From positions 1-58,714 of the forward strand of contig CAYXTB010000001.1 of NCBI GenBank assembly GCA_964468255.1: a stretch of DNA of 58,714 nucleotides, given 5' to 3'. Origin of the DNA: Candidatus Woesearchaeota archaeon (lineage in GTDB: Archaea; Nanobdellota; Nanobdellia; Pacearchaeales; GW2011-AR1). Positions within the stretch are counted from its first letter, which is position 1. Each line of letters opens with the position of its first letter. The notes beneath the pieces are model-generated. The model saw only the letters and a list, made by a program, of their open reading frames with translations, did no database searches and was not told where the DNA came from. Of the stretch, positions 37,509-56,586 are shown piece after piece. A program made the translations under genes and the position numbers.

Positions 37509-38639
37509 ATGATGATAAACTGCGGGAAATTTTATAAAGCACTTATAGATAGAAAGATAGAGTTTTTTACAGGAGTTCCTGATTCTTTGTTAAAAGATAT
37601 ATGCGCTTACATAACTGATAATACTCCTAAAGAAAGAAATATTATTGCTGCAAATGAGGGAGGAGCAATTGCCCTTGCTTCTGGATATTATTTAGCAACT
37701 GGAAAAATGCCTTTGGTTTACATGCAGAATTCTGGACAGGGAAATTCCATCAATCCTTTAGCTTCTTTAACAGACAAGGAAGTTTATAGCATTCCAATGC
37801 TGTTAATGATAGGATGGAGGGGAGAGCCGGGAAAGGAAGACGAGCCGCAACATAGAAAACAGGGCAGGATTACTTTAGATTTATTAAAAGTCCTTGAAAT
37901 TCCATATGAAATATTGTCTGATAAGAGCAATGGAATTGAGGATTACATTGACCGGGCGGTTACTCATATGAAAAAGAAAAACAGCTCTTATGCGTTCGTC
38001 GTGAGAAAAGGAACATTTGAGTCGTATGCTTTGAAAAATGACGGGGAGGAAAGGTACAAATTAACAAGAGAAGAAGCAATAAAATTGGCTGCCGAAAAAT
38101 TGGATGGAAGAGAAGTTATAATTTCTACAACCGGCATGATTTCAAGAGAGCTTTTTGAATATAGAAAGGGCAAAAATCAAAATTTGGGTAGAGATTTTTT
38201 AACAGTGGGATCAATGGGGCATGCTTCCCAGATAGCTCTCGGCATTGCGTTATCAAAGCCAAACAGAGAAGTTTATTGTTTTGACGGGGATGGCTCTGTA
38301 ATAATGCATCTTGGCTCTCTTGCTGTTATCGGAGAAAAAAAGCCGAGAAATTTTAAGCATATAGTTTTTAATAATGGAGTGCATGATTCAGTTGGCGGTC
38401 AACCAACTGCCGGCTTCTCAATAAATATCCCTGAAATTGCAAAGGCATGTGGTTACAAAGAAACATGGAGCGCTGAAACAGCCGAAGAAGCTGAGGAAAA
38501 GATAGAATTGCTGAAGAAAGCTGAAGGCCCTTCTCTTCTTGAAATAAAGGTCAGAAAGGGGCATAGAAAAAATCTCAGCAGACCAGACAAGAGCCCAGAG
38601 GAAAATAAAAATAATTTCATGAATTTCCTTGAAGAATAG
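37509..38639 (+). CDS. aepY: phosphonopyruvate decarboxylase
   Basis: 376 aa. It has the N-terminal FFTGVPDSLLKD block and the ThDP motif GDGSVIMHLGSL...VFNNGVHDSVGGQPT, both typical of Ppd. It is flanked by the AEP transaminase gene and lies near the PEP mutase gene. Confidence 0.85.
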   Translation: MMINCGKFYKALIDRKIEFFTGVPDSLLKDICAYITDNTPKERNIIAANEGGAIALASGYYLATGKMPLVYMQNSGQGNSINPLASLTDKEVYSIPMLLMIGWRGEPGKEDEPQHRKQGRITLDLLKVLEIPYEILSDKSNGIEDYIDRAVTHMKKKNSSYAFVVRKGTFESYALKNDGEERYKLTREEAIKLAAEKLDGREVIISTTGMISRELFEYRKGKNQNLGRDFLTVGSMGHASQIALGIALSKPNREVYCFDGDGSVIMHLGSLAVIGEKKPRNFKHIVFNNGVHDSVGGQPTAGFSINIPEIAKACGYKETWSAETAEEAEEKIELLKKAEGPSLLEIKVRKGHRKNLSRPDKSPEENKNNFMNFLEE

Positions 38640-38787
38640 CTAATTCAGCAAATATTATATCTTAATTATCTGCAGTTCTCTAACATTATCTTCATTAAGT
38701 TAATTATTGTTTCTAATTTCAGATATAATTCCTAGTTTGCTCTTAAAGATAGGGCAAGAGAATAAATATATTTATAAAAGGAGCAAA

Positions 38788-39936
38788 ATGCTGAATAAGA
38801 TGGAACCTCTGGAATTAAAAGTTAAGAGAAATATATTGTTAAATCCTGGGCCTGGAACAACGACTTACAGCGTTAAAATGGCTCAATTAGTTCCCGATAT
38901 CTGTCATAGAGAGAAGGAATTCTGCCTTCTTCTTGATGGTATAAGAAAAGACCTTGTTAAAATAGCCTCTAAAAGCCAAGAGGATCATACTGCTGTTCTT
39001 TTTGCAGGTTCTGGGACTGCTGCTGTTGAATCAGTTATAATATCTGCCATACCCGATAATAAAAAACTTCTTGTCATTAATAATGGGGCGTATGGAGACA
39101 GAATTGCAAAAATAGCCAGAACATTTGGAATAAATTTAGAGGAGCAAAAATATTCTTGGAATCAAGGGCCTGATTTGGAGAGAGTAAGGAGAGCTGTAAG
39201 TGAAAGTGGAATTGAATATATCGCGGCAGTCCATCATGAAACAACCTCTGGATTGCTAAATCCTATAAGAAAGCTCGGAGAAATAGCAAAGGCAAATGGA
39301 TGCAAATTTATTGTAGATGCAATGTCCAGCTTTGCAGGGATTGCTTTTAAAATGGAAGAGAATAATATAGATTACTTAATTTCCTCTGCAAACAAATGCT
39401 TACAAGGAATGCCTGGCATTTCATTTGTTATAGCAAAAAAAGATGAAATTGAAAAATTAAAAGATGGAAAAAAGAAATGTTTTTATCTTGATTTGCATGC
39501 GCAATATGAATCCTTGGAAAAACAGCAGCAAATGCGCTTTACTCCTCCTGTTCAAACTGCCTATGCATTGAGAAAGGCAATAGACGAGTTTTTTGAGGAA
39601 GGAGCTGAAAGAAGGCAGGAAAGATATTTCAAAAGCTGGCAGACTCTTACATCTGGATTGCATGAAATAGGATTTAAGCTTTTAATTGAAGATGAAAGGA
39701 TGCAGTCAAGAATATTGACTTCTGTAGTTGAGCCTAAGAATCAAGAGTATGATTTTGATAGACTGCATGATAGATTATATGAAAAAGGATTTACTATTTA
39801 TCCAGGCAAAATTGGAAACATGAATACATTTAGAATAGCAAATATGGGAGCAATAGATTATAGAGATATTGAAAACTTCCTTTCTGCTTTAAAAGATTCT
39901 TTAAAATGTATGGGAATTGAGAAATTAGTTTATTAA
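38788..39936 (+). CDS. phnW: 2-aminoethylphosphonate:pyruvate aminotransferase (class V aminotransferase)
   Basis: It has NPGPGTTT near the N-terminus and the PLP-lysine block SSANKCLQGMPG. The start was set at the ATG at 38788, which is preceded by AAAGGAG. The track ORF begins at a TTG at 38707. Confidence 0.8.
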   Translation: MLNKMEPLELKVKRNILLNPGPGTTTYSVKMAQLVPDICHREKEFCLLLDGIRKDLVKIASKSQEDHTAVLFAGSGTAAVESVIISAIPDNKKLLVINNGAYGDRIAKIARTFGINLEEQKYSWNQGPDLERVRRAVSESGIEYIAAVHHETTSGLLNPIRKLGEIAKANGCKFIVDAMSSFAGIAFKMEENNIDYLISSANKCLQGMPGISFVIAKKDEIEKLKDGKKKCFYLDLHAQYESLEKQQQMRFTPPVQTAYALRKAIDEFFEEGAERRQERYFKSWQTLTSGLHEIGFKLLIEDERMQSRILTSVVEPKNQEYDFDRLHDRLYEKGFTIYPGKIGNMNTFRIANMGAIDYRDIENFLSALKDSLKCMGIEKLVY

Positions 39937-39977: not shown

Positions 39978-40838
39978 ATGGAAGCACAAGGAAAAACGCG
40001 GGAAGAAGAACAGAAAGATTTTTTTAGGGAGAATTGCTATTTGCTCGTGAGAGATTTTTTCTCTGAAGAACAAGTCAGGTTATTAAGAAGATATGCTGAT
40101 GAAATGGGCGAGCAATCGCAAAGAGTATTGAATGCTGCCCCACAATCAAGTATGGATATTAATTCTTTTCAAAATGCATTTAAAGGATTAATAGTTGTGC
40201 CAGAAAAAGAAAAGCCTAATCAGGTATGCAGAGTAGAGGATATGCTTTCGTATAGCAGAGGCCTTTATCATTTGGTCTTGGGAAGCGTTACTCCTTTTAT
40301 TTCAGATGTTCTTGGGGAAGAATATGTTCCATTCAAGGATAAGCTTAACTTCAAATGGCCTGGAGGAGGAGCTTTTAAGCCTCATCAAGATTATCCTGCT
40401 TATGACTTGTTTGGGCCGAAAGAGCATGTAACTGCTATGATAAGCATTGATCCATCAACTTTGGAAAATGGCTGCCTTAAAGTTGCCCATAATTACAGGA
40501 AGCCTTTAATAGCAAATGAAAGAATAGAGCAAAAATCTTTATTGCTGGGAAAACCAATAATACCATATAATGGAGATACTATGGAGCAAGAATTTGTTGA
40601 TGTGTTTGATTGGAGGCCTATTGCAACAATGCCAAGGGATTTATTAATATTTGATTCCTATGTTCCTCATGCATCTGAGGCAAATGCCAGCAATTTCCCA
40701 AGAAGAGCAATGTTCATAACGCACAACAGGCTTGCTGAAGGAGAATGGAGAAAAGCATATTACGATTTGAAGAGGAGAGACCCCTTAAATCCTAAGTTTC
40801 ATTTTGCAAATCCAACTACAAAGAGAGAGGAAAAGTAA
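39978..40838 (+). CDS. PhyH-family Fe(II)/2-oxoglutarate dioxygenase
   Basis: 286 aa with an HQD facial-triad start (KPHQDYPAY) and a distal His (YVPHASEAN). It sits inside the phosphonate cluster, where PhnY*-type AEP hydroxylases belong to this family. Confidence 0.7.
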   Translation: MEAQGKTREEEQKDFFRENCYLLVRDFFSEEQVRLLRRYADEMGEQSQRVLNAAPQSSMDINSFQNAFKGLIVVPEKEKPNQVCRVEDMLSYSRGLYHLVLGSVTPFISDVLGEEYVPFKDKLNFKWPGGGAFKPHQDYPAYDLFGPKEHVTAMISIDPSTLENGCLKVAHNYRKPLIANERIEQKSLLLGKPIIPYNGDTMEQEFVDVFDWRPIATMPRDLLIFDSYVPHASEANASNFPRRAMFITHNRLAEGEWRKAYYDLKRRDPLNPKFHFANPTTKREEK

Positions 40839-41393: not shown

Positions 41394-41395
41394 AA

Positions 41396-42948: not shown

Positions 42949-43764
42949 ATGGATAATAAATTAAAAGAATTGGTTATAAAAGAATATGACAGCGATTTTG
43001 CCAAAAAGTCGTATGAGAAGATTATAAAAGAAGGGCTTTTTGAGAGCGAGAAATATTTTATTGGCAAGTATTTCAAGAAAAAAGAGAAGGTTCTTGACAT
43101 AGGATGCGGGACAGGAAGAGCATCTATCCAGTTGCATAAGCTTGGATATAAAATGACTGGCATTGATATAGTTAAAAGCATGATTGAAAAAGCCAAAGAG
43201 ATTGCTAAAAGAAATAAGCTGAAAATAAAATATAAGGTTGGAGACGCAACTTCATTGCAATTTAAAGACAAAGAGTTTGATTATGCCTTATTCACATATC
43301 AAGGATGGACTAAGATTCCAGGAAAAGAAAACAGGCAAAAAGCCTTGAATGAGGCATTTAGGGTATTAAAGAAGGGAGGAATATTTTTATTGACTGCAAG
43401 AAGAAGAATATGGACTGGAAGGCATTTATTTATATGGCTCTGGAACTGGATAAGATTTTACATATTAAAAAGAATTGGATTTAAAATCTGGGAAAAAGAT
43501 TTCGGCGACAGAATGTGGATTGATAAAGGATTCATCAAATGGCTAAAATCCAGGATTTTGAAGAGCATCGGATTTAAAATTGAGGATAATTATGCAAGAT
43601 ATAATACAAATCAATATTACCATATTCCTTCTGTTGAGGAAGTAAAAAGGCAGATAAGAGCTTCTGGATTTAAAATTTTAGAGATAAATAACAGGATAGA
43701 AAGGCAAAAATGGCAGAAAGCCAATAAGCATAGCCCATTATTTTATGTCTGCGAGAAAATTTAA
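42949..43764 (+). CDS. class I SAM-dependent methyltransferase
   Basis: It has the motif I block VLDIGCGTGRASIQL and the post-I acidic residue (GIDIV). The C-terminus contains an internally repeated GFKIWEKDF / GFKIEDNY segment. Confidence 0.8.
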   Translation: MDNKLKELVIKEYDSDFAKKSYEKIIKEGLFESEKYFIGKYFKKKEKVLDIGCGTGRASIQLHKLGYKMTGIDIVKSMIEKAKEIAKRNKLKIKYKVGDATSLQFKDKEFDYALFTYQGWTKIPGKENRQKALNEAFRVLKKGGIFLLTARRRIWTGRHLFIWLWNWIRFYILKRIGFKIWEKDFGDRMWIDKGFIKWLKSRILKSIGFKIEDNYARYNTNQYYHIPSVEEVKRQIRASGFKILEINNRIERQKWQKANKHSPLFYVCEKI

Positions 43765-45479
43765 ACTTTATTAAAATACTGGCTTAAAAGAACAAAATCA
43801 TTTTCATTATGAAGCTCAAGCCAGCCCTTATGAGTCTCAATGAAATTTATTTTGAAGCCTCTATATATCATTTCCTGGAAAATGTCTGTAAAATCAGCTT
43901 TATGAATTGATTCTACTTCATGAAAAGAGCCTTTATGATTTAAAATGCAGTCTTCATAAACCTTGATAAAATTCTTTGCTCCTTCTTCTGTAAATTTTAT
44001 AAAGCTTAAAGCTTCATGAGTTGCTTCATTTATGTCTATCTTCTTTCCTATTTTCTTTACTTCATTATTTTTTGGCTTTATCTCTCTCAAAGCAAAGGAT
44101 GATTCTTTCGCTGCAATCAAATCAAGTTCTTTATCTATATTATGCTTATGATAAGCATAAGAATTATCAGCAACTATAACAATGTCTCCTTCTGCTTTCA
44201 ATAGATTAGACATTAATTTATTATCAAAAATAATATCTGGATTAATATAAATAAAGCCCAATTTCATCTTATTTTTTGCGAGCATCATGCCGTATAAGGC
44301 ATAAGTTTCCTGCCATTTTTCATTCCTTATGTAATTAGCTCCAGGAATGTTAAACATTTCTGCCTTATAGCCAGTTACGACATTTATATCAGAAAGACCT
44401 GCTTCTTTTAGCAGATCTATTTGTTTCTGAAGCAAAGGAGTGCCATTTATTTTTACAAGAGCTTTTGGAATATCTCCTTGGTTTAATTTTACAGGAAGAA
44501 AATCGTGACCTGCTGCAGTAATTATGACTGGCAGAGAAATAGATCTTAATTTGTCTTTTTCGGTTATATCAGTAAAACCTACAATTTCAAAGACTTTCTT
44601 TAATGGAACACAGAGAGAATTCGCTTCATAAGACCTATCATTGAATAAAATTGACTCGCAAGCTTTTTCCATAGAATGATATGCTGACCTTAAAAGATGA
44701 TTGGCATGGATAACAATGTTGAAACCAAGCTCTCTCAATTCAGAATCATAAATTCTATTATATGTTGTCGGAACTGCTACTAATGGCTTGCCGAAGCCGA
44801 TTGTATTTGAAAATAGGGATTTATATCTCTTTGCGAACTCTATTATTTTCTCTGGAGAATCGTCTTTGGAATGAATCATTATTCCATCAACTCCTGCTTT
44901 TAAATAAATTTCAGCTCTTTTTAATGCATCATCTAAATCCTTGCCGGCTATAAAACTCTCAATTCTGGCAATTATCATGAAATCTCTGAATTTTTGCACT
45001 TTCTTGCCTGCTTTTATTTTTTCCGCAAATATTTTTGGATCTTCTAAATCTTGCTTTGCCCCTTGGAAAAGAGAGTTTCTTTTTGGAAATATTTTGTCCT
45101 CTATTATAACTGCTGAAACTCCTATGGCCTCCAATCTTGGAATCAAATATTCAAATTGGCTTATATCTCCTCCTGTATCGCCGTCAAATATAATTGGCTT
45201 TGAAGTGACTCTTGTAATTTGCTCTGTTGTTGATAGTCTGGAATCCATGCTGACTAGTTCCACATCTGGCATGCCTTTTGAGGCAGAATCTGTCAAAGAG
45301 GATTCCCAAAGAGCATCAAATTCTAAAGATTCAAGATCTTTTTCTATTTTGAGATCATTTGCTATTATTCCTGATAGTCCATTATGCACTTCTATTGCTC
45401 TGATAAAGCCTTTTCTATTTAATATTTCCTTCAACTTGGGTATTCTTTCAGATGATGAAATTAGGTTCTTTAATGTCAT
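43761..45479 (-). CDS. aepX: phosphoenolpyruvate mutase fused to a C-terminal nucleotidyltransferase domain
   Basis: 572 aa. The N-terminal half has EVHNGLSGIIAN and the diagnostic EDKIFPKRNS block of PEP mutase. The C-terminal half has an NTP-transferase-like start, VIITAAGHDF...PKALVKINGTPLL. Confidence 0.85.
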   Translation of the reverse strand: MTLKNLISSSERIPKLKEILNRKGFIRAIEVHNGLSGIIANDLKIEKDLESLEFDALWESSLTDSASKGMPDVELVSMDSRLSTTEQITRVTSKPIIFDGDTGGDISQFEYLIPRLEAIGVSAVIIEDKIFPKRNSLFQGAKQDLEDPKIFAEKIKAGKKVQKFRDFMIIARIESFIAGKDLDDALKRAEIYLKAGVDGIMIHSKDDSPEKIIEFAKRYKSLFSNTIGFGKPLVAVPTTYNRIYDSELRELGFNIVIHANHLLRSAYHSMEKACESILFNDRSYEANSLCVPLKKVFEIVGFTDITEKDKLRSISLPVIITAAGHDFLPVKLNQGDIPKALVKINGTPLLQKQIDLLKEAGLSDINVVTGYKAEMFNIPGANYIRNEKWQETYALYGMMLAKNKMKLGFIYINPDIIFDNKLMSNLLKAEGDIVIVADNSYAYHKHNIDKELDLIAAKESSFALREIKPKNNEVKKIGKKIDINEATHEALSFIKFTEEGAKNFIKVYEDCILNHKGSFHEVESIHKADFTDIFQEMIYRGFKINFIETHKGWLELHNENDFVLLSQYFNKV

Positions 45480-45605
45480 TTTTTGTAAAAATTCAATATT
45501 ATGAGGTTTTATAAATATATATGAAAGATGATTCCATAGACTTGTATTATCTGTTACAATGATTCTTGTTTGGGATATTAGAGGGCAATCATAAATGTTT
45601 ATAAA

Positions 45606-46382
45606 ATGCCTTTTATTGATTTTTCTATGGATAATTCAAAGTACCATGTCTTAATTTTAGCTGCTGGAAAAAGCACAAGATTGGCTCATTTAACTAGAGG
45701 AAAGCCAAAATGCTTTTTGGAAATAGGAGGAAAAAGCATAATTGGACGCATGCTTGACTGCCTTAGTGAAAGAGGAATTAAGGAAGCGACTATAGTTATA
45801 GGCTATATGAGTGAATTTTTTATGAAAACCCTTGGAAATAAATACAAAAATATTGATATTGATTATATAGTAATGGATGATTATGCGACTACTCTGCATG
45901 GATGGGGGTTTTATCTTACCAAAGATAGATGGCAAAAAAGTAAAAAGCCAGTTATCTTTATGGACGCAGATAATATTTTTGATCCAAAATTAATAGATAA
46001 GCTTTTGGAAGAAAATAATGATAATGTTTCCTTAATTGATAACAATCCAGAGAACAAGAATACTGAAGAAGAGCTTGTTATTGGAGATAAAGAAGAAATA
46101 AAAGGCTTTGAAAGAGGAATCTTTTCAAAAGATAAGAAGTTCCTCGGTGAATTCGTCGGAATAAACAAATTTTCTCCTGAATTTATGGAAAACTTGTATA
46201 AGTTTATGGACTCTTTAGGAGATAAAATTAAGATCCTTAAATATGAAAAAGTCTTTGATAAATTCATTAATTTCACCAAAAATAAAATTAATTATTTAAA
46301 AACCGGCGGATTGAAATGGGTAAATGTTAATAATGAATATAGCTTTGAAAAAGCAAAAAAATTAGCCTTGTTTGAATTTTAA
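45606..46382 (+). CDS. sugar/alcohol-phosphate nucleotidyltransferase (LicC-like)
   Basis: 258 aa with the N-terminal ILAAGKSTRL...GKPKCFLEIGGKSII signature of the NTP_transferase family. Confidence 0.78.
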   Translation: MPFIDFSMDNSKYHVLILAAGKSTRLAHLTRGKPKCFLEIGGKSIIGRMLDCLSERGIKEATIVIGYMSEFFMKTLGNKYKNIDIDYIVMDDYATTLHGWGFYLTKDRWQKSKKPVIFMDADNIFDPKLIDKLLEENNDNVSLIDNNPENKNTEEELVIGDKEEIKGFERGIFSKDKKFLGEFVGINKFSPEFMENLYKFMDSLGDKIKILKYEKVFDKFINFTKNKINYLKTGGLKWVNVNNEYSFEKAKKLALFEF

Positions 46383-47039
46383 TTAGTATTTTCTATAGAC
46401 CCAGAACTTAAATATCCAAAAGGCGTTTGCTATTAGGCCGAATATAAATAACAGTGGCAGACTTGCAAAAAATATTGATATAGAGACCAGCCATCTTTGG
46501 ATACCATCTGTAAATCCTATAACTATTTTTCTTTTTCCAAATAATTTCTCTCTAACACTTTTTGCTATTTTATTTTTTTGCTTGAAAAAGGCAGCAGCGT
46601 AACCTGCGCTTAGGATTACCATAAACAGGCCAAACATTGCAAACAGGCCAACCCATATGTTTCCTAAAAAGTAGCCTGCAAAGAAAACAATTAGCGTGAA
46701 GCCGACTGTTCCTACAACACTGTCTAAATAAGCCCCGAAATTCCCATATTTCTTTCCCTTCTTGTAAGCATAATATCTCGCAACGTCCCCATCGCAACAG
46801 TCTAAAACGGCGGCAAGATGGACAAGAATCCCTGCAAAAATCCATTGATTTATATACATAAGATAAATAACTAGAAAATCGGCCAGAACAACTAATATAT
46901 TTACTATTATTGGCGATACTCTCAAAGAAATAAAAATCATGTTAAGGAAGATTGAAATTCTCCTGTAAAAATAATAGTCCATCCAAACCTCTGGATGATA
47001 ATCTTTTCTTAGATTTTTCAGCTCTTTGTATAATGACAT
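46383..47039 (-). CDS. CDP-alcohol phosphatidyltransferase family membrane protein
   Basis: 218 aa with multiple TM helices. It has DCCDGDVARY...G...D, matching the D-G-x2-A-R...G-x3-D-x3-D family motif. Confidence 0.8.
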   Translation of the reverse strand: MSLYKELKNLRKDYHPEVWMDYYFYRRISIFLNMIFISLRVSPIIVNILVVLADFLVIYLMYINQWIFAGILVHLAAVLDCCDGDVARYYAYKKGKKYGNFGAYLDSVVGTVGFTLIVFFAGYFLGNIWVGLFAMFGLFMVILSAGYAAAFFKQKNKIAKSVREKLFGKRKIVIGFTDGIQRWLVSISIFFASLPLLFIFGLIANAFWIFKFWVYRKY

Positions 47040-47102: not shown

Positions 47103-47807
47103 TTATATTTCTGGTTTATAAAATATTAAATTACATTTTGATGGGTAACCGTTTTTATATCTTAATGACTTCTGCAAAAATCCATAAAAACCATAGTCCT
47201 GTAACAAATCAAATATTTTCCCAAATGAAGTAATACCTTTATGTGCTCTTTGCAAATGCTTTTCTATTATAATAACATCAATTTCTTTTAATCTGTTCTG
47301 AAAACCTTTCAGTGCTTCATACTCTGCTCCTTCAACATCTATCTTTAACAAACATGGTTCAATTATCTTTATAGGCAAATGATCAAATCTCCTTTTATTA
47401 ACTTTTATTTTTTTAACTATTTCATTATCATAATCTATATTATGTTCAGAGTATTCAAACAAGGAGCTGTTAGCACTTCTTCTCTTATTTATATAGAATA
47501 TGCATTTGTTCTCGTCTTTATCCCATAAAGCGATTGGAAATGCCACCGCACCATATTTTTTAGCAACAGAATCGCATAAATCCTTTATAGGATCAATAGC
47601 ATAAATAAATCGCGCGTTCGGAAACAAAGATTTAAATGCTTTTATGTAAGATCCTTCATTACAACCCGCATCAATATATGTTTTAAAATCTTTTTTTGAA
47701 ATGTCTCTCGCCCATAAAATCTCAAAATAAGCGGCAGGTTTTACTTTCTTAATTAAAGATAAAATTGCCTTTGGTTGTTCTATCGCATTAATTATTTTTT
47801 GTTTCAT
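47103..47807 (-). CDS. FkbM-family methyltransferase
   Basis: It has the blocks IDAGCNEGSY and LLKIDVEGAEYEALKG. The start was trimmed to MKQKII (ATG 47807). Confidence 0.78.
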   Translation of the reverse strand: MKQKIINAIEQPKAILSLIKKVKPAAYFEILWARDISKKDFKTYIDAGCNEGSYIKAFKSLFPNARFIYAIDPIKDLCDSVAKKYGAVAFPIALWDKDENKCIFYINKRRSANSSLFEYSEHNIDYDNEIVKKIKVNKRRFDHLPIKIIEPCLLKIDVEGAEYEALKGFQNRLKEIDVIIIEKHLQRAHKGITSFGKIFDLLQDYGFYGFLQKSLRYKNGYPSKCNLIFYKPEI

Positions 47808-47877
47808 TGTTTTAACATCTTGTTTATGACAAAATTGGAGCAAAAGGGTTTATAAAACTCTCTTTTATAATGAATGA

Positions 47878-49401
47878 ATGAAAGAAAATAAAAAGATAAG
47901 CATAGCAAATCAAGCAATAGGAAACTCTATATTAGATATTATATCCTCATTTGTACAAAGAATAGGCGGCCTGATATTTACAATTATTGTTGCAAGAATT
48001 CTGATGCCTGAAGGATTTGGAATTTATGGCCTCGCAATTTCAATAGCTTCTGTATTTATGGTTTTTGGAAAGATGGGAATTGATGAGACATTTATCAGAT
48101 ATTTCTCAGAATTTTCTAGGAATAAGAAGATGGCAAGCGCTTATTTTAAATTTATAATGAAAATTAAGTTAATTGTTCTTCTTGTGTTATTAACAATTAT
48201 CTTTTTAAGTTCGCATGTATTAGTAAATTTAGTATTTAAAAAACCAGCTCTTTTTCTTCCTCTTCTTCTCTGCGCAGGATACATGTTCATTCTCTCCATA
48301 GAAGGACTCTTTACCTCATTCTTTATAGCAATAAGGAAAATAAAATATGTTGTGTATAAAGAAAGCCTGTTCCAATTCTTAAGAATAATACTTGTTGTTA
48401 TAATGGTTGCCATATTTGTTAAAAATCCTGACATTATTAACACATTTTTATCTCTGATATTGGCTTCCATTGTTACTTTTCTTTTTGTAATATTTAAAAT
48501 AAAGGCAATGTCTCCCAATTTGTTCAAAAAAGCTGGAAAATTGGATAAAAAAGATAAAAAAAGAATAATTCACTTCTTTGGTTATTTCACATTTACTTCA
48601 ATTTCATTAGTTTTCTTTGGAAATATAGATAGTGTAATGATTGGTTATCTTATAGAAAATGCAAGTGCAATTGGATTTTACAAGGCTGCATTTACAATCT
48701 CATCAAGTATAGCCGGATTTTTAGGATTTGGAATGGTTTTATTGCCTTTATTTATTCAAAAGAAGAAGAAACTTGAATATGTTTATAATATTGTATTAAA
48801 ATATTTAATGATTCTGGCTATTCCTGCCACATTCGGTATAATAGCACTGGCAAGCCATTTTGTTGTTCTTATATATGATTATGAATATATAGAATCAACG
48901 CTGCCACTTATATTTCTTGCATTTACAATAATCTTGACTGTTTATGTAAGTTCTGTAGTGCAATTATTCCTAACAAAAGAAAAGCCACAAGGTTATTTTA
49001 AACTGCTTTTATCTGTAATTATAATAAATATTATACTAAATTATATTTTAATAACTTCTTTGTTAAGATACTCAATTATATGGGGTGTTAGTGGAGCAGC
49101 AATTGCAACTGTTTTAAGCTGGCTTATTTATGCTGTTGGAATTAATATTTTAGCAAAAAAGAAATTAGGCATAAGAACAAAGATAAGAGTTATGATTAAA
49201 CCTTTTTTCGCCTCTCTAGTGATGTTTGCAGTTATTTATCTTATAAAAAAACAATATTACGATATAAGCCTATTGTCAGGATTTCTGCTTGTAATTACTG
49301 GGGCAGTTATTTATCTTATAATTATGCTCGTAATTAAAGGTATTGTAAAAGAGGATATTTTAATATTTAGAGATTTTATTAAAAACAGTAATTTGATTTG
49401 A
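47878..49401 (+). CDS. polysaccharide/oligosaccharide flippase (Wzx-like, MOP superfamily)
   Basis: 507 aa with about 12-14 predicted TM helices. The size and hydrophobic pattern fit polysaccharide biosynthesis transporters, and the gene sits in a glycosylation cluster. Confidence 0.7.
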   Translation: MKENKKISIANQAIGNSILDIISSFVQRIGGLIFTIIVARILMPEGFGIYGLAISIASVFMVFGKMGIDETFIRYFSEFSRNKKMASAYFKFIMKIKLIVLLVLLTIIFLSSHVLVNLVFKKPALFLPLLLCAGYMFILSIEGLFTSFFIAIRKIKYVVYKESLFQFLRIILVVIMVAIFVKNPDIINTFLSLILASIVTFLFVIFKIKAMSPNLFKKAGKLDKKDKKRIIHFFGYFTFTSISLVFFGNIDSVMIGYLIENASAIGFYKAAFTISSSIAGFLGFGMVLLPLFIQKKKKLEYVYNIVLKYLMILAIPATFGIIALASHFVVLIYDYEYIESTLPLIFLAFTIILTVYVSSVVQLFLTKEKPQGYFKLLLSVIIINIILNYILITSLLRYSIIWGVSGAAIATVLSWLIYAVGINILAKKKLGIRTKIRVMIKPFFASLVMFAVIYLIKKQYYDISLLSGFLLVITGAVIYLIIMLVIKGIVKEDILIFRDFIKNSNLI

Positions 49402-49590: not shown

Positions 49591-50370
49591 GTGAGCAGAA
49601 TGATTTTTAAGATTAGGCAGTGCTTAGAAGTGATTAGAATAATAAAAAATTTTCCTCTATATTTTGCAAACTATTTCAAACTGGTTAATAAAAAATATAT
49701 TATTTATAAGTTAAGAAATGGCATTAAATATAAAACAAGGTCTGGCACTACAGACCGAGGAATAATTAATGAGATATTTATTTATAAAGAGTATAATCCA
49801 AGAGGATTTGAAATTAAAAAGGATGATGTTGTAATAGATATTGGCGGGCATATAGGAATATTTACAATTCTTGCCTCAAAACTTGCTGAGAATGGAAAGA
49901 TATATGTTTTTGAGCCCATGCCAGAGAATTTTAATCTTCTTTTAGAGAATATCAGAATTAATAATAGAAGTAATGTAGTCGCTTTCAAAAAAGCAGTTGC
50001 TAGTAAAAATGAAAAAAAAGATCTTTTTCTCTCAGAAGGGGAAAATAAGGGAGGAAACTCATTTTATAAGAAAAATGAAAATTCTAGGAAAATAGAAGTT
50101 GAAACCTTGGCTTTTCAAGATTTTATCAAGAAAAATAAGATAAAAAAGATAGATTTTTTGAAAATGGATTGCGAGGGAGGTGAATATGACATTTTATTTA
50201 AATGCCCTAAGGAAACATTGAAGAAAATTAGCAAAATAAGCATGGAATACCATAATCTTAGCAATAAAAATAATGGCGAAAGATTAAAGGCATTTCTGGA
50301 AAAATCTGGATTTATAGTAATAAAGAAAGAATTGAGAAAAAGGGGTATGATTTATGCAAAGAGAGAATAA
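49591..50370 (+). CDS. FkbM-family methyltransferase
   Basis: It has the blocks VVIDIGGHIGIFT and FLKMDCEGGEYDILF. It has a GTG start; an alternative ATG lies at 49600. Confidence 0.78.
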   Translation: MSRMIFKIRQCLEVIRIIKNFPLYFANYFKLVNKKYIIYKLRNGIKYKTRSGTTDRGIINEIFIYKEYNPRGFEIKKDDVVIDIGGHIGIFTILASKLAENGKIYVFEPMPENFNLLLENIRINNRSNVVAFKKAVASKNEKKDLFLSEGENKGGNSFYKKNENSRKIEVETLAFQDFIKKNKIKKIDFLKMDCEGGEYDILFKCPKETLKKISKISMEYHNLSNKNNGERLKAFLEKSGFIVIKKELRKRGMIYAKRE

Positions 50371-50378
50371 CAATGTTT

Positions 50379-51389
50379 TTAAGATTTTTTTGCTAAAATC
50401 TCATCTATTTTTTCTGTTATTTCGCTAACTTTTATCTTTTTAAGCTCAGCATAAATGTAATGCCCATTTTTCCCAAGAGGCTCTATATATTCCAAAGGAA
50501 GATATTTCTCTATAAGGGCAAGAGTTGGGGATCTTCCAACCCATGCTATATGCATCGGACCGCCATCATGCGCTATAATTAAGCTACTTTTTTTAAAAAG
50601 TAAATAAAGAACCCTTAAATTTTCCTTTATTAATACAATAATTTGCGGATGTTTTTTCTTTAACCAATCAATTTTCTTTTTATCTGTTCCTAATATTAAA
50701 ATCTTTTTTTCTGGATAATTTTTTTCAAAATGCTTTATTAACAAATCAAATTTTTCTATTGGCATTGCTTTTTTTTCCATGCTACTATCTGGAACAATAC
50801 ATATAAACTGCTTCTTCTTTAAACCATTCTTTTTCATAAGCTTATTCGTATATTTTTCATCTCCTTTATCAGTCCAAATTTCTGGCCAGTAATTTTTTCT
50901 ATTCAAACCTAGTCCATTATTAATTAAATCAAGTCTTTGTAAAACACAATGCCTTTTTTTATTTTCATAATCTTTTTTTGTCTTGCCGTAGTGCAAAAGA
51001 AATTTTCCATAATATTGGCTGTAAAAGCCTATTCTATATTTAATCCCTGGCAGAAACATAAGGAAAAAGATGTTAGAAAAACTGCCACGTAGCTCTACAC
51101 CAAGGTCATATTTTTCTTTCCTGATTTTTATAGAGGCTTTTAAATATGATAAGAAGTCTTTAAAAGTTCTTGGCGCAGAATTTAAAACTATAATCTCTTC
51201 AAAGTAAGGGTTTTTTTCAACTAAAGATTTATTCAATTCAGAGCAAACTAGAGTTATCTTTGCTTTGGGAAATTCCTCCCTTAATTCCCTAAACACGTTA
51301 GAAGACAAAATAATGTCCCCTATCATATCATTTTTTATCAAAAGTATTTTCTTTACTTTCTTCTTGTCAAAATATTTGTTTAAAAGCAT
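50379..51389 (-). CDS. glycosyltransferase family 9 (heptosyltransferase-like)
   Basis: 336 aa. The N-terminus has KKILLIKNDMIGDIILS and the C-terminus has IIAHDGGPMHIAWVGRSPTLALI, both typical of GT9. Confidence 0.75.
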   Translation of the reverse strand: MLLNKYFDKKKVKKILLIKNDMIGDIILSSNVFRELREEFPKAKITLVCSELNKSLVEKNPYFEEIIVLNSAPRTFKDFLSYLKASIKIRKEKYDLGVELRGSFSNIFFLMFLPGIKYRIGFYSQYYGKFLLHYGKTKKDYENKKRHCVLQRLDLINNGLGLNRKNYWPEIWTDKGDEKYTNKLMKKNGLKKKQFICIVPDSSMEKKAMPIEKFDLLIKHFEKNYPEKKILILGTDKKKIDWLKKKHPQIIVLIKENLRVLYLLFKKSSLIIAHDGGPMHIAWVGRSPTLALIEKYLPLEYIEPLGKNGHYIYAELKKIKVSEITEKIDEILAKKS

Positions 51390-51474: not shown

Positions 51475-52260
51475 ATGAACGGAAAACAACAAATGAGTGA
51501 TAAGGAATTTGCAGAATGGATGCGTGAATTTTACAATAAAAAAGCAAAAAGCGTTTTTAAAGGAGATTATGAATGCTACAGATGGTTCAGTACGCCCATA
51601 AAAAAAAGGCAATATGCTTTTACTACTTTAAGCTTACTTTATCATTTGAGAGATATAAGATTCAAAAATTGTCTTGAAATCGGATGCGGTGCAGGAACAT
51701 GGACAAAACTTCTAATCAAAAAATATCCAAAAGCGAGATTTACTTGTCTGGATATTTCAAAAGAAATGATAAAACAATTTAAAATTAAAATCAAATCAAA
51801 AAGAGTTAAAATAATAATAAATAATTTCTTGGATCAGGAGTTTAAAAGTAAATATGATTTTATATTCTGCTCAAGAGCTATTGAATATATTCCAAACAAG
51901 CCAGAAGTAATAAAAAAGTTTTATGAGCTTCTTCTTCCAGGAGGAAATGGAATAATTGTGAGCTCTTCACCGCATCCTGTTTTCTTTCGCATTAAGAAAC
52001 TATTTAAAAGAAAGATTAATCTACAGCATACACAAAGAATATCTGTAAAAGATTTGTATAAATTGTTAAAAAATGCTGGTTTTGTAAATATTGAGTTCTA
52101 TCCTATTCTCTTCAGTGAGCTTAAGGTGATACCAACAAAAAGACTCTTTAAGAATTTATATAAAAAAAAATTCGGCATATTATCTAGAATTTTCGCTACC
52201 GGCTACATAACAAAGTTTAAAAAATTCGTTTATTCTGAAGAAAAGAATGAAAAAATTTAA
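51475..52260 (+). CDS. class I SAM-dependent methyltransferase
   Basis: It has the motif I block CLEIGCGAGTWTKLL and the post-I residue CLDIS. Confidence 0.8.
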   Translation: MNGKQQMSDKEFAEWMREFYNKKAKSVFKGDYECYRWFSTPIKKRQYAFTTLSLLYHLRDIRFKNCLEIGCGAGTWTKLLIKKYPKARFTCLDISKEMIKQFKIKIKSKRVKIIINNFLDQEFKSKYDFIFCSRAIEYIPNKPEVIKKFYELLLPGGNGIIVSSSPHPVFFRIKKLFKRKINLQHTQRISVKDLYKLLKNAGFVNIEFYPILFSELKVIPTKRLFKNLYKKKFGILSRIFATGYITKFKKFVYSEEKNEKI

Positions 52261-52831
52261 AATAGTATTTATCGGAGCAGAGGAAAGCGGCAAGACAACA
52301 TTTATCAATTACATAAAAGAAGAACTTGAAAAGGAAGGAAAAAAAGTAAGTATCTTGTTAATGGGCTGGAAAAATTTTATAAATCCTTTTTTAAGAATCT
52401 TTTCAAAGATGTATCTAAAAAATAAAAAAGGTTCTGCAAGCCGGAGAATTATAGAACATAAAAAAAGATCTTTCCTTTTTTTTATGATATATTATTCTGA
52501 GCTTTGGTTAAGATATATGAAAGCTCTTCTTTCCAAAAATAATATTATACTTATTGATAGATATTTTTACGATGAACTTGCCTTTGCAAATGGAATAAAA
52601 TTTAAGATATTCAAATTAATAACGCCTGAGCCAGACTTATGCATAATAATGGTGGCTCCTGTTTCTGTTATGAGAAAAAGGGGGCTATTAGTAAATAAAA
52701 AAGACTTTTATGGTTTTTATGAAAGACTTAAAAGAGTTGCAAAATTAGGAAATTTAATCTACATTAATAGCTCTAAAAATTTAAAAAATAATTACTTTAT
52801 CTTAAGAAATGCAATCTCTAAATTTATATGA
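52247..52831 (+). CDS. thymidylate-kinase-like P-loop kinase (paralogue group 4 of 4)
   Basis: 194 aa with the blocks IVFIGAEESGKTT, LIDRYFYDELAF and CIIMVAPVSVMRKRG. It overlaps the preceding methyltransferase gene by 14 nt. Confidence 0.65.
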   Translation: MKKFKIVFIGAEESGKTTFINYIKEELEKEGKKVSILLMGWKNFINPFLRIFSKMYLKNKKGSASRRIIEHKKRSFLFFMIYYSELWLRYMKALLSKNNIILIDRYFYDELAFANGIKFKIFKLITPEPDLCIIMVAPVSVMRKRGLLVNKKDFYGFYERLKRVAKLGNLIYINSSKNLKNNYFILRNAISKFI

Positions 52832-56536: not shown

Positions 56537-56586
56537 CATATATTTCAATACCATAAATGTTTTAAAGCTATTATATAAGTGATTTT

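What the first reader, a model, noticed from the sequence alone, without database searches (positions are those of the whole stretch)
43761..47039. PEP mutase-nucleotidyltransferase fusion next to a CDP-alcohol phosphatidyltransferase: a possible archaeal phosphonolipid route
The 572-aa protein joins a PEP mutase to a C-terminal NTP-transferase domain. A second LicC-like nucleotidyltransferase (45606-46382) and a CDP-alcohol phosphatidyltransferase-family membrane enzyme (46383-47039, DCCDGDVARY) lie immediately beside it. In bacteria, Ppm fused or clustered with phosphonate cytidylyltransferases makes CMP-AEP. In eukaryotes, CDP-alcohol-family phosphotransferases use CMP-AEP to make phosphonolipids. 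By analogy this trio could install an AEP-type headgroup on an archaeal lipid or lipid-linked glycan. That chemistry has not, to my knowledge, been established for this kind of archaeon.
Basis: inference. Interest (0 to 1): 0.58.

Follow-up and report, generated by a model that had tools for sequence, protein, structure and literature searches.

The report
Archaeal aminoethylphosphonate surface-decoration gene cluster
A tiny symbiont-type (DPANN) archaeon has a full gene set to make the carbon-phosphorus compound aminoethylphosphonate, activate it with CMP and probably attach it to a membrane-bound surface molecule; the kind of cluster is known from bacteria, but its transferase lacks a supposedly essential catalytic residue.

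Summary
Window 43761-45479(-) is a PEP mutase with a C-terminal nucleotidyltransferase domain. 45606-46382(+) is a LicC/PntC-type nucleotidyltransferase. 46383-47039(-) is a 218-aa, six-helix CDP-alcohol phosphotransferase carrying DCCDGDVARY.

The link between transferase and phosphonate is real. Of 23 loci of this small transferase family, 15 carry a phosphonate-specific gene. In 23 ppm-bearing DPANN genomes, 16 of 50 CDP-OH genes lie within about 14 kb of ppm (about 1 expected).

The parts list mirrors the catalogued bacterial "Burkholderiales_CDP-OH / Group 1 phosphonolipid" cluster and a trio noted in Borg elements. This scan has logged similar DPANN cassettes in at least 20 other genomes. 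It is a new variant, not a new kind.

Two features stand out:
- The transferase family invariably has Gly in place of the fourth signature Asp, the proposed catalytic base.
- It is the only CDP-OH gene in a genome with no detectable lipid-synthesis genes.

The acceptor is unknown. Context favours a lipid-linked glycan or glycolipid over a core lipid: GT4, GT9, a MOP flippase, FkbM methyltransferases, AglB elsewhere in the genome, and a minimal six-helix architecture.

The parts
37509..38639 (+). Phosphonopyruvate decarboxylase (Ppd)
   Evidence: TIGR03297 equivalog scores 503.2 bits against a cut-off of 312.5. It is 38-63% identical to the Ppd genes next to ppm in L001, L002, L004 and L005.
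38707..39936 (+). 2-aminoethylphosphonate:pyruvate aminotransferase (AEPT, PhnW/AepZ type)
   Evidence: TIGR03301 scores 438.8 bits against a cut-off of 360.8. PDB matches: the AEPT domain of 6pd1 at E 7e-93 and PhnW structures at E 1e-75 to 1e-79.
39978..40838 (+). PhyH-family Fe(II)/2OG dioxygenase, a candidate phosphonate alpha-hydroxylase (PhnY*-like). It may convert AEP to 1-hydroxy-AEP.
   Evidence: PF05721, E 2e-17. Its only NCBIfam hit is NF052437 methylphosphonate hydroxylase, E 4e-36, 124.7 bits, far below the cut-off of 500. It shows no sequence similarity to the Burkholderiales cluster oxygenase. The function is inferred.
42949..43764 (+). Class I SAM methyltransferase. It may N- or O-methylate the phosphonate or the glycan. 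Its membership in the pathway is uncertain.
   Evidence: Methyltransf_25/31/11, E about 1e-23. Its 3' end overlaps the ppm stop by 4 bp.
43761..45479 (-). PEP mutase (residues about 1-305) fused to a C-terminal PF12804 nucleotidyltransferase domain (residues about 310-572)
   Evidence: TIGR02320 scores 336.3 bits against 319.55. The EDKIFPKRNS motif is present. The PDB PEP mutases 5unc and 1m1b match, and LicC matches residues 311-428. The fused domain lacks the (S/T)R of the GxG(T/S)R loop and reads AAGHDFLP.
45606..46382 (+). Stand-alone LicC/PntC-type nucleotidyltransferase, the candidate AEP cytidylyltransferase
   Evidence: PF12804 and PF00483. The best PDB hits are LicC 1jyk and Tde1415 PntC 6pd1. 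It aligns over its full length with the Mycetohabitans cluster PntC at E 5e-14. It has the canonical LILAAGKSTRL loop.
46383..47039 (-). Six-helix CDP-alcohol phosphotransferase homologue lacking the fourth signature Asp. It is the candidate phosphonyl (AEP) transferase.
   Evidence: PF01066 scores 33.8 bits against 22. HMMER aligns G110 with D4 of AF2299. G110 is invariant in 15 homologues. The AF2 model has pLDDT 83 and its best fold match is AF2299 4o6n, TMq 0.73. It is the only PF01066 gene found in the genome.
47103..47843 (-). FkbM-family methyltransferase, 63 bp upstream of the transferase gene on the same strand and probably in the same operon
   Evidence: PF05050, E 2e-14, and TIGR01444. 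The layout CDPOH-FkbM-GT9-FkbM-Wzx recurs in L126 and L120.
47878..49401 (+). MOP/Wzx-type polysaccharide flippase
   Evidence: PF01943, E 8e-26, and PF13440. Homologues lie near the transferase in L001, L002, L003, L112, L126 and L127.
49591..50370 (+). Second FkbM-family methyltransferase
   Evidence: PF05050, E 2e-22, and TIGR01444 at 111 bits.
50379..51389 (-). GT9 (heptosyltransferase-family) glycosyltransferase
   Evidence: PF01075, E 1.5e-17. Homologues (26-54% identical) lie in L001, L002, L005, L120 and L126.
51475..52831 (+). SAM methyltransferase (51475-52260) plus a Tmk-like P-loop protein (52247-52831). This pair directly abuts the transferase gene in related loci.
   Evidence: Pfam hits are. 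The pair is 58-62% and 46-50% identical to copies next to CDPOH in L001, L002 and L112. The role is unknown.
53428..54570 (+). GT4 glycosyltransferase, a conserved neighbour of this transferase family
   Evidence: PF00534 and PF13439. Homologues (23-68% identical) directly abut CDPOH in L003, L004, L005, L119, L124, L125 and L128. Orthologues (57-65% identical) lie about 1 kb (G189) and 2.4 kb (G354) from the sister-clade CDP-OH gene.

Best explanation
This is a phosphonate surface-decoration module inside a glycan-biosynthesis island of a lipid-auxotrophic DPANN archaeon.

Steps 1-3, supported by equivalog-level family matches:
- PEP is converted to phosphonopyruvate by the Ppm domain.
- Phosphonopyruvate is converted to phosphonoacetaldehyde by Ppd.
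- Phosphonoacetaldehyde is converted to 2-aminoethylphosphonate by AEPT.

Step 4, inferred: optional tailoring. The PhyH dioxygenase may make 1-hydroxy-AEP, and the methyltransferases may methylate.

Step 5, inferred from homology to LicC and Tde-PntC: the stand-alone nucleotidyltransferase joins CTP and the phosphonate to give a CMP-phosphonate. The role of the divergent Ppm-fused domain is unclear.

Step 6, inferred from conserved synteny and fold: the 218-aa CDP-alcohol-phosphotransferase homologue binds the CMP-phosphonate as a CDP-alcohol analogue. It transfers the phosphonyl group to a hydroxyl, or possibly a phosphate oxygen, of a membrane-associated acceptor and releases CMP. The most likely acceptor is the sugar of a polyprenyl-phosphate-linked glycan or a glycolipid built by the neighbouring GT4 and GT9 enzymes.

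Step 7, inferred: the MOP flippase exports the product, and AglB or another route displays it.

Because the usual catalytic base (D4) is Gly, the chemistry of step 6 must differ in detail from characterised family members.

My odds: about 0.75 that the transferase moves a nucleotide-activated phosphonate to some membrane-associated acceptor, and about 0.45 that the acceptor is a glycan or glycolipid sugar rather than a core lipid.
For: AEP core: Ppm, Ppd and AEPT all score above curated equivalog cut-offs.

Nucleotidyltransferase: LicC and Tde1415-PntC are its best solved relatives. It is homologous to the Burkholderiales cluster PntC.

Transferase-phosphonate link:
- In 4 of 5 genome loci the family sits within 5 kb of ppm, ppd and an NTase. 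The fifth (L003) has PhnD (PF12974, E 1e-77), ABC components and two PF01467 cytidylyltransferases instead.
- In 17 metagenome loci, 9 carry ppm, ppd, AEPT, Fe-ADH or PhnD. Four of the rest are contigs under 2.1 kb with an adjacent NTase or CTase.
- In 23 ppm-positive DPANN genomes, 16 of 50 PF01066 matches lie within about 14 kb of ppm (binomial P about 3e-13).
- In 4 of those genomes, as in this one, the only PF01066 gene is the one beside ppm.
- The downstream tailoring enzyme varies (AEPT, ALDH, Fe-ADH) while the NTase and transferase stay. This fits a transferase acting on nucleotide-activated phosphonates in general.

Fold: AF2299 and DIPPS are the nearest structures. Both use soluble CDP-alcohol donors (PMC4634129).

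Glycan context:
- GT4, GT9, MOP flippase and FkbM genes flank the transferase here and in relatives.
- AglB immediately follows the transferase gene in L116.
- AglB is present in this genome, while CarS, GGGPS and UbiA were not found.
- The enzyme has six helices only. Lipid-acceptor family members typically carry 3-4 extra helices (PMC4634129).
Against: - No member of this transferase clade, nor the bacterial 'phosphonolipid' CDP-OH enzymes, has been assayed. The acceptor is therefore pure inference.
- D4, the proposed catalytic base and Mg-2 ligand, is Gly. D93N nearly abolishes MtPIPS activity (PMC4634129, PMC6506517). The protein could be slow, could use another mechanism, or might not be a transferase.
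- The window's protein also has PIIVN where relatives have the cytosine-binding (A/P)NxxT.
- No CDP-alcohol phosphotransferase is known to use a glycan acceptor. All characterised ones use lipids or small polar alcohols.
- The sister clade in G189 and G354 also has D4->Gly, in genomes with no ppm or PhnD found. The clade is therefore not strictly phosphonate-specific.
- The genome is only 75% complete, so the missing lipid genes are not proven absent.
Confidence: 0.55

Rival explanations
1. Phosphonolipid route. The transferase performs a Kennedy-type reaction, joining CMP-AEP and archaeol or another core lipid scavenged from the host to give an AEP-archaeol phosphonolipid. This would remodel borrowed membranes.
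For: - The parts list matches the bacterial 'Group 1 phosphonolipid / Burkholderiales_CDP-OH' core: Ppm-PntC fusion, Ppd, AEPT, an oxygenase, a second PntC and a CDP-OH gene (PMC8942020; locus L077).
- Every characterised membrane CDP-alcohol phosphotransferase makes or uses a lipid or a small alcohol.
- It is the only PF01066 gene in the genome.
- Eukaryotes make AEP lipids from CMP-AEP with this enzyme family (background knowledge).
Against: - It has only six helices and 218 aa. Lipid-acceptor members (CPT, EPT) carry extra C-terminal helices (PMC4634129).
- No lipid-synthesis genes that could supply free archaeol were found.
- It is always embedded in glycan islands and often abuts a GT4.
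- The bacterial cluster's LPG_synthase_TM partner was not found here.
- The bacterial CDP-OH enzyme keeps D4 and resembles this one only at motif level (E 0.048).
- The bacterial product itself has never been characterised (PMC8942020).
Confidence: 0.2
2. The D4-less protein does not transfer onto a membrane acceptor. In one version it makes a soluble phosphonate diester, as DIPP synthase does with two soluble substrates. In another it is a CMP-phosphonate-binding protein with a different or much reduced activity, such as a hydrolase or a carrier or flippase partner.
For: - The nearest structures, AF2299 and DIPPS, handle only soluble substrates (PMC4634129).
- Loss of D4 nearly abolishes transfer in MtPIPS while leaving binding intact (PMC4634129).
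- D4 is replaced by G, S, N, A, T or H in 13 of 16 ppm-proximal homologues.
Against: - The family is strongly conserved. D1, D2, D3, G1, AR and G2 are all invariant, and so is a basic loop spanning residues 152-182.
- The gene is consistently placed at the end of the activation genes and next to glycosyltransferases and flippases.
- A reduced genome is unlikely to keep an inert membrane protein.
Confidence: 0.12
3. Reverse polarity. The enzyme uses a lipid donor, either CDP-archaeol or the reverse reaction on host phospholipids with CMP. The hydroxyl of 1-hydroxy-AEP or HEP is the acceptor, giving an archaetidyl-O-phosphonate head group.
For: - Six-helix family members typically pair any donor with a soluble alcohol acceptor (PMC4634129).
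- A dioxygenase here, or an Fe-ADH in L005, L117, L122 and L123, would provide a hydroxylated phosphonate.
Against: - No CarS was found.
- Nucleotidyltransferases are invariably retained next to the transferase, including in the importer-fed loci. That points to a nucleotide-activated phosphonate donor.
- The ALDH-type loci (L002, L112) would yield phosphonoacetate, which has no hydroxyl.
Confidence: 0.05
4. The transferase is an ordinary archaetidyl head-group synthase (serine, inositol-phosphate or glycerol-phosphate) that merely happens to lie next to the phosphonate genes.
For: Weak NCBIfam similarity to archaetidylinositol-phosphate synthase (41.5 bits) and archaetidylserine synthase (23.4 bits).
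Against: - Both scores are far below the cut-offs of 180 and 240.
- D4 is missing.
- No CarS was found.
- Linkage to ppm, ppd, NTase or PhnD recurs across loci.
- In a rough tree, the ppm-distal, D4-bearing copies group apart from the ppm-linked ones, though support is weak at 0.5-0.6.
Confidence: 0.03

Closest known systems
'Burkholderiales_CDP-OH' / Group 1 phosphonolipid gene clusters (Yu et al. 2013; Li & Horsman 2022, PMC8942020). The example examined here is Mycetohabitans rhizoxinica pBRH01, locus L077.
   Same: Both have Ppm with a C-terminal PF12804 NTase fusion (97% of the query is covered), Ppd, AEPT, an Fe/2OG oxygenase, a second stand-alone PntC-like NTase (E 5e-14) and a small CDP-alcohol phosphotransferase (about 230 aa). 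In both cases the product is uncharacterised.
   Different: - The host is an archaeon (DPANN).
- The transferase is not orthologous (motif-level similarity only, E 0.048) and lacks D4, which the bacterial one keeps.
- The oxygenase belongs to a different family (PhyH; no similarity).
- No LPG_synthase_TM partner is present.
- The cluster is embedded in a glycan island with a MOP flippase, GT4, GT9 and FkbM methyltransferases.
Phosphonyl tailoring (Pnt) pathway with PntC cytidylyltransferases of Treponema denticola, Atopobium rimae and Olsenella uli (Rice et al. 2019, PMC6697681)
   Same: AEP is made by Ppm, Ppd and AEPT and activated as CMP-AEP by a LicC-like PF12804 enzyme. Ppm is fused to an NTase, as in about 60% of Ppm proteins. 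A second NTase lies within a few genes. The neighbourhood is cell-surface glycan biosynthesis.
   Different: The bacterial clusters carry LicD-like phosphotransferases for the final transfer. Here that position is taken by a CDP-alcohol-phosphotransferase homologue. The substrate preference of the archaeal NTases is untested.
AF2299 and IPCT-DIPPS of Archaeoglobus fulgidus (PDB 4o6m/4o6n/4q7c, 4mnd)
   Same: These are the best sequence and fold matches (E 1e-6; TMq 0.73). They share the six-helix core and the preference for soluble CDP-alcohol donors that a CMP-phosphonate donor would require.
   Different: The archaeal protein has no N-terminal cytosolic cytidylyltransferase-like domain. D4 is Gly. 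There are 13 residues between AR and G2 rather than 8. A family-specific invariant Asp54 and a basic loop (residues 152-182) are present.
Cobalt Borg genes 308, 319 and 320 (Methanoperedens extrachromosomal element; bioRxiv 10.1101/2024.11.05.622173)
   Same: This is also an archaeal setting. It has a Ppm-cytidylyltransferase fusion, a PntC-AEPT-like protein and a short CDP-alcohol phosphotransferase lacking the cytosolic domain, next to lipid-II-type (MOP) flippases in a glycoconjugate region.
   Different: The Borg protein is reported to have an exactly conserved active site, whereas D4 is lost here.
Eukaryotic choline/ethanolamine phosphotransferases (CHPT1, CEPT1; PDB 8gyw)
   Same: They belong to the same superfamily.
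   Different: The fold match is poor (rank 34, E 2.1). They have a 10-helix architecture with a lipid-acceptor module and a complete D1-D4 signature.

Membership tests
PEP mutase (Ppm, TIGR02320) | Score above the curated equivalog cut-off | tested here: met
   336.3 bits against a cut-off of 319.55.
PEP mutase (Ppm, TIGR02320) | EDKxxxxxNS motif, which separates Ppm from other isocitrate-lyase-family enzymes (PMC6697681) | tested here: met
   EDKIFPKRNS is present in the translation.
PEP mutase (Ppm, TIGR02320) | A coupled phosphonopyruvate-consuming enzyme nearby | tested here: met
   Ppd at 37509-38639; TIGR03297 scores 503 bits against 312.5.
PntC / LicC-type phosphonate cytidylyltransferase (PF12804) | NTP_transf_3 fold with the N-terminal GxG(T/S)R nucleotide loop | tested here: met
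   The stand-alone 45606-46382 protein meets it: PF12804 at 38.2 bits against 27, with the loop LILAAGKSTRL. The Ppm-fused domain does not: it scores 30.8 bits against 27 but its loop reads AAGHDFLP, without the (S/T)R.
PntC / LicC-type phosphonate cytidylyltransferase (PF12804) | Closest characterised relatives are LicC or PntC rather than sugar-1-phosphate NTases | tested here: met
   The top PDB hits are 1jyk LicC (E 3e-10) and 6pd1 Tde1415 (E 3e-9, over 200 residues). NCBIfam hits to AglF and GlmU cover only the N-terminal part and fall far below their cut-offs.
PntC / LicC-type phosphonate cytidylyltransferase (PF12804) | Preference for AEP and CTP | not testable with these tools
   According to Rice et al. 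2019 the specificity determinants are steric, not a sequence motif. An enzyme assay is needed.
CDP-alcohol phosphotransferase (PF01066) | Pfam score above the gathering threshold, and the six-helix fold | tested here: met
   33.8 bits against 22. The AF2 model has pLDDT 83 and matches AF2299 at TMq 0.73, followed by DIPPS and PIPS.
CDP-alcohol phosphotransferase (PF01066) | Eight 'absolutely conserved' signature residues, D1xxD2G1xxAR...G2xxxD3xxxD4 (PMC4634129) | tested here: not met
   Seven of the eight are present. D4 is Gly110, which HMMER aligns to D4 of AF2299. Gly110 is invariant in 15 homologues and in about the top 20 representative clusters.
CDP-alcohol phosphotransferase (PF01066) | P(D/N)xx(T/S) cytosine-binding motif at the start of TM1 (PMC4634129) | tested here: not met
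   The window protein and its 84%-identical relative read PIIVN. The other family members read (A/P)NxxT.
Archaetidylserine / archaetidylinositol-phosphate synthases | NCBIfam equivalog cut-offs, and availability of a CDP-archaeol donor (CarS) | tested here: not met
   NF040950 scores 41.5 bits against 180, and NF038087 scores 23.4 against 240. No PF01864 CarS, PF01884 GGGPS or PF01040 UbiA was found in the 75%-complete genome.
Kennedy-type choline/ethanolamine phosphotransferase (lipid acceptor) | Additional 3-4 C-terminal transmembrane helices forming the lipid-acceptor module (PMC4634129) | tested here: not met
   The protein has 218 aa and six membrane helices in the model. CEPT1 8gyw matches only at rank 34, E 2.1.
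Burkholderiales_CDP-OH / Group 1 phosphonolipid cluster (seven-gene core, PMC8942020) | Ppm-PntC fusion, Ppd, AEPT, a second PntC, an Fe/2OG oxygenase, a CDP-OH transferase and a second phospholipid-type gene (LPG_synthase_TM in L077) | tested here: inconclusive
   Six of the seven functional slots are filled. The oxygenase and the transferase are not orthologous to the bacterial ones. No ORF scanned between 30 and 58 kb has an LPG_synthase_TM domain.

The most novel reading that the evidence does not exclude
The D4-less CDP-alcohol-phosphotransferase branch may be the long-missing 'phosphonyl transferase' of nucleotide-activated phosphonate pathways, working by a non-canonical mechanism. In this lipid-auxotrophic DPANN archaeon it would put AEP-type head groups directly onto lipids scavenged from the host. 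The result would be the first archaeal phosphonolipids, made by head-group remodelling of borrowed membranes. The mechanism could use an anionic nucleophile such as a polyprenyl phosphate or a lipid phosphate, or substrate-assisted catalysis, so that no enzyme base is needed.
Probability: 0.2. Interest if true: 0.8.

Novelty: new variant of a known kind. Interest (0 to 1): 0.5.

Why it matters
The step that moves a CMP-activated phosphonate onto its final acceptor has not been biochemically defined in any organism. That includes the abundant Burkholderia 'phosphonolipid' clusters.

This archaeal cluster offers a compact, testable candidate: 218 aa with no extra domains. It is tied to phosphonate genes by synteny across many DPANN genomes, including importer-fed versions.

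The consistent loss of the proposed catalytic-base Asp in ppm-linked homologues bears on the accepted mechanism of CDP-alcohol phosphotransferases. The counts are 13 of 16 ppm-proximal against 3 of 25 ppm-distal.

About 6% of the sampled genomes of this DPANN phylum encode Ppm, and these organisms are abundant in aquatic and sediment habitats. Their phosphonate-decorated surfaces could therefore be an overlooked source of environmental C-P compounds. They could also be a way for episymbionts to resist phosphatases or host recognition.

Tried and rejected
I could not look up the genomic context of database homologues P0004-P0019 or of the 150 representative hits. I used genome, metagenome and genome-search loci instead.
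- Standard head-group synthase: rejected (scores, no CarS, D4 missing).
- Orthology with the Burkholderiales CDP-OH enzyme and oxygenase: rejected.
- D4->Gly as a strict marker of phosphonate chemistry: rejected. The sister clade in G189 and G354 has it without ppm or PhnD.
- A clean phylogenetic split between housekeeping and ppm-linked CDP-OH genes appears in a FastTree tree, but with only 0.52-0.60 support, so I do not rely on it.
- Literature search for an assayed bacterial or archaeal phosphonolipid or phosphonoglycan CDP-OH transferase found none in the held library.
- Sequence-based prediction of NTase substrate: abandoned, because Rice et al. describe steric, not motif, determinants.
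- Model coordinates are not exposed. I could not test whether the invariant Asp54 or the basic loop sits at the D4 position.
- The ESM Atlas only returned generic CDP-OH clusters.
- The PDB gave no informative relative for the PhyH dioxygenase.

Full report
**What is there**

The three ORFs of the finding exist as described.
- 43761-45479(-) encodes 572 aa. Its N-terminal 300 residues are a PEP mutase: PF13714 at E 3e-51, and TIGR02320 at 336.3 bits against a cut-off of 319.55. The Ppm-specific EDKxxxxxNS motif is present as EDKIFPKRNS.
- Its C-terminal 260 residues are a PF12804 nucleotidyltransferase (NTase) domain that matches LicC.
- 45606-46382(+) is a stand-alone PF12804/PF00483 NTase. 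Its best solved relatives are LicC (1jyk) and the PntC domain of Treponema denticola Tde1415 (6pd1).
- 46383-47039(-) is a 218-aa PF01066 protein with DCCDGDVARY at residues 80-89.

The rest of the AEP pathway lies 4-8 kb upstream on the + strand.
- Phosphonopyruvate decarboxylase, 37509-38639: TIGR03297 at 503 bits against 312.5.
- AEP:pyruvate aminotransferase, 38707-39936: TIGR03301 at 439 bits against 360.8, and E 7e-93 to the AEPT domain of 6pd1.
- A PhyH-family dioxygenase, 39978-40838. Its only NCBIfam hit is the PhnY*-type methylphosphonate hydroxylase, at E 4e-36 but far below cut-off.

Downstream of the transferase lies a glycan island:
- an FkbM methyltransferase that is probably co-operonic;
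- a MOP/Wzx flippase;
- a second FkbM methyltransferase;
- a GT9;
- a methyltransferase plus Tmk-like pair;
- VanZ;
- a GT4;
- a heptose-like NDP-sugar module.

**Organism**

- The assembly is 511,694 bp in 17 contigs and 75% complete.
- The relatives of the transferase are in MAGs labelled Woesearchaeota, Pacearchaeota and Nanoarchaeota. This is therefore a DPANN archaeon.
- The transferase is the only PF01066 gene found in the genome.
- CDP-archaeol synthase, GGGP synthase and UbiA-type prenyltransferases were not found.
- An AglB/STT3 oligosaccharyltransferase is present on another contig.
- Absences carry the 75% completeness caveat.

**Is the transferase really tied to phosphonates?**

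Yes, by several independent lines.

(i) Five genome loci of the family.
- L001, L002, L004 and L005 place the transferase within 5 kb of ppm, ppd and an NTase.
- L003 has no ppm on its 11-kb contig. It has a PhnD-type phosphonate-binding protein (PF12974, E 1e-77), an ABC ATPase, a permease and two PF01467 cytidylyltransferases directly upstream of the transferase. This looks like a salvage version.

(ii) Seventeen metagenome loci.
- Nine carry ppm, ppd, AEPT, a Ppd-adjacent Fe-ADH, or PhnD.
- Four of the others are contigs under 2.1 kb on which the one visible neighbour is an NTase or CTase.
- L126 reproduces the window's layout.

(iii) Phylum-wide sampling.
- In a sample of 400 genomes of the phylum, about 24 encode a full-scoring Ppm. 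None of the 27 genomes from the window's own family do.
- In 23 of these ppm-positive genomes there are 50 PF01066 matches, and 16 lie within about 14 kb of ppm, in 12 genomes. About 1 would be expected by chance (binomial P about 3e-13). Related genomes are not independent, so that P value is generous.
- In four of those genomes the ppm-adjacent copy is the only PF01066 gene.

(iv) The tailoring enzyme between Ppd and the NTase varies.
- It is AEPT here and in L004, L124, L125 and L126.
- It is an aldehyde dehydrogenase in L002 and L112.
- It is an Fe-alcohol dehydrogenase in L005, L117, L122 and L123.
- The NTase and the transferase persist throughout. This fits an enzyme that handles nucleotide-activated phosphonates in general.

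**The transferase is atypical**

- HMMER aligns it to AF2299 with D80, D83, G84, A87, R88, G102 and D106 on the signature positions, but with Gly110 on D4.
- Gly110 is invariant in 15 homologues and in about the 20 best representative clusters of a 1.84-billion-protein library. In that library the family is small: 12 clusters at E <= 1e-30.
- D4 is the proposed catalytic base and Mg-2 ligand. D93N nearly abolishes MtPIPS activity without affecting binding (PMC4634129, PMC6506517).
- Among the DPANN genomes examined, 13 of 16 ppm-proximal CDP-OH genes lack an acidic residue at D4 (replaced by G, S, N, A, T or H). Only 3 of 25 ppm-distal genes lack it. Fisher P is 1e-5, or 0.002 when collapsed to genera.
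- The loss is not strictly a phosphonate trait. The sister clade of the family (SH support 0.92), in G189 and G354, also has Gly there, and those genomes have no ppm or PhnD. These sister genes again sit in a glycan cluster, next to an orthologue of the window's GT4.
- The window's protein and its nearest relative also have PIIVN where the other family members keep the cytosine-binding (A/P)NxxT.
- The AF2 model (pLDDT 83) has the six-helix core only. Its best matches are AF2299 (TMq 0.73) and DIPPS, followed by PIP synthases. CEPT1 is a poor match.

**Which acceptor?**

This is inference.

Points favouring a glycan or glycolipid sugar:
- The gene always lies in a glycan island.
- A GT4 directly abuts it in seven related loci.
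- FkbM, GT9 and MOP flippase genes recur around it.
- AglB follows it in L116.
- The genome has AglB but no detectable core-lipid synthesis genes.
- Clarke et al. note that six-helix members take polar acceptors, whereas lipid-acceptor members have 3-4 extra helices (PMC4634129).
- An invariant Lys/Arg-rich loop (residues 152-182) would suit an anionic acceptor that bears a phosphate, such as a polyprenyl-phosphate-linked sugar.

Points favouring a core lipid:
- The parts list matches the bacterial 'Group 1 phosphonolipid' cluster (PMC8942020; L077).
- No family member is known to use a glycan acceptor.

I put glycan or glycolipid at about 0.45, core lipid at about 0.2, and soluble or non-transferase roles at about 0.12. 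The remainder is split among the other rivals.

**Comparison with known systems**

- Ppm-NTase fusions are the norm, at about 60% of Ppm proteins (PMC6697681).
- The Burkholderiales_CDP-OH core has a Ppm-PntC fusion, Ppd, AEPT, an oxygenase, a second PntC, a CDP-OH gene and an LPG_synthase_TM gene. It is the closest catalogued cluster.
- Its CDP-OH enzyme keeps D4 and shows only motif-level similarity to this one (E 0.048). Its oxygenase is unrelated. Its PntC is homologous (E 5e-14). The archaeal cluster is therefore an analogous assembly from partly non-orthologous parts.
- A 2024 preprint noted a Ppm-CTase fusion, a PntC-AEPT and a short CDP-alcohol phosphotransferase next to MOP flippases in a Borg element.
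- Earlier notes of this scan report similar DPANN cassettes in at least 20 other genomes, covering HEP, methylphosphonate, importer-fed and His-variant versions. My own loci independently reproduce the HEP, importer-fed and His-variant forms.

**Fused NTase**

The Ppm-fused NTase domains here and in L004 lack the (S/T)R of the nucleotide loop. All stand-alone copies keep it. I therefore assign cytidylyl activation to 45606-46382 and leave the fused domain's role open. Why phosphonate clusters keep two NTases is unexplained.

**Data caveat**

The tally includes one unpublished genome (G360). No claim in this report rests on it.

**Verdict**

This is a real, well-supported AEP biosynthesis, activation and transfer module in a DPANN glycan island. 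It is a new variant of a known kind.

The phosphonolipid reading is possible but is not the favoured one.

The most useful product of this work is a compact candidate for the uncharacterised phosphonyl-transfer step, together with the finding that ppm-linked homologues systematically lack the canonical catalytic Asp.

Noticed in passing
L067:10286-11656(+), L068:5881-7248(-), L075:7367-8788(-): Proteins of about 456 aa with cupin and HTH_31 hits sit in DPANN ppm loci. This is the architecture of HEPD/MPnS-type enzymes, so some DPANN may make methylphosphonate or hydroxymethylphosphonate. Only Pfam was run on them.
   Followed up: no
L055:7343-8866(-), and homologues in L056, L061, L063, L064: Genes of about 500 aa with a weak PF00884 'Sulfatase' hit (the EptA/LtaS superfamily) occur only in ppm loci that have no CDP-OH gene. 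They may be an alternative phosphonate transferase. The numbers are small.
   Followed up: partly
L003:5284-8016 and L121:254-1609: A PhnD-type phosphonate-binding protein, ABC components and PF01467 cytidylyltransferases lie directly upstream of the same transferase family, with no ppm on the contig. This looks like an importer-fed salvage version.
   Followed up: partly
L003:9902-11218, L125:1068-2381, L127:1911-3227, L128:7489-8667: A B12-binding radical SAM enzyme (Fom3/PhpK-like architecture) sits next to the GT4-transferase pair in several loci. It may C- or P-methylate a CMP-phosphonate.
   Followed up: no
window 43761-44560 (NTase domain of the Ppm fusion): The fused NTase domain lacks the (S/T)R of the GxG(T/S)R loop and reads AAGHDFLP, as does its L004 orthologue. 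Stand-alone NTases in all loci keep the loop. The fused domain may be catalytically altered.
   Followed up: partly
window 51475-52831; also 35188-35922, 40866-42283: A methyltransferase plus Tmk-like P-loop pair abuts the transferase gene in L001, L002 and L112. The window holds three further Tmk-like paralogues. Their role is unknown; CMP/CDP recycling or phosphonate phosphorylation are guesses.
   Followed up: no
window 55646-58713: An RpiB-cytidylyl/adenylyltransferase fusion (RfaE domain II-like, 151 bits), a PfkB kinase, a class II aldolase and a cupin protein lie near the GT9. This looks like a heptose-like NDP-sugar module.
   Followed up: no
G222:C14:62231-64240 (L081): Two adjacent ORFs of about 345 aa each carry two PF01066 matches. 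These are tandem-duplicated CDP-OH domains within one protein, and both visible signature motifs retain D4.
   Followed up: no
window 30363-31455 and L001:10708-11818: Nucleotidyltransferase/HEPN (MNT-HEPN type) pairs occur in the window. In L001 one is inserted between the NTase and the transferase of the phosphonate cluster.
   Followed up: no
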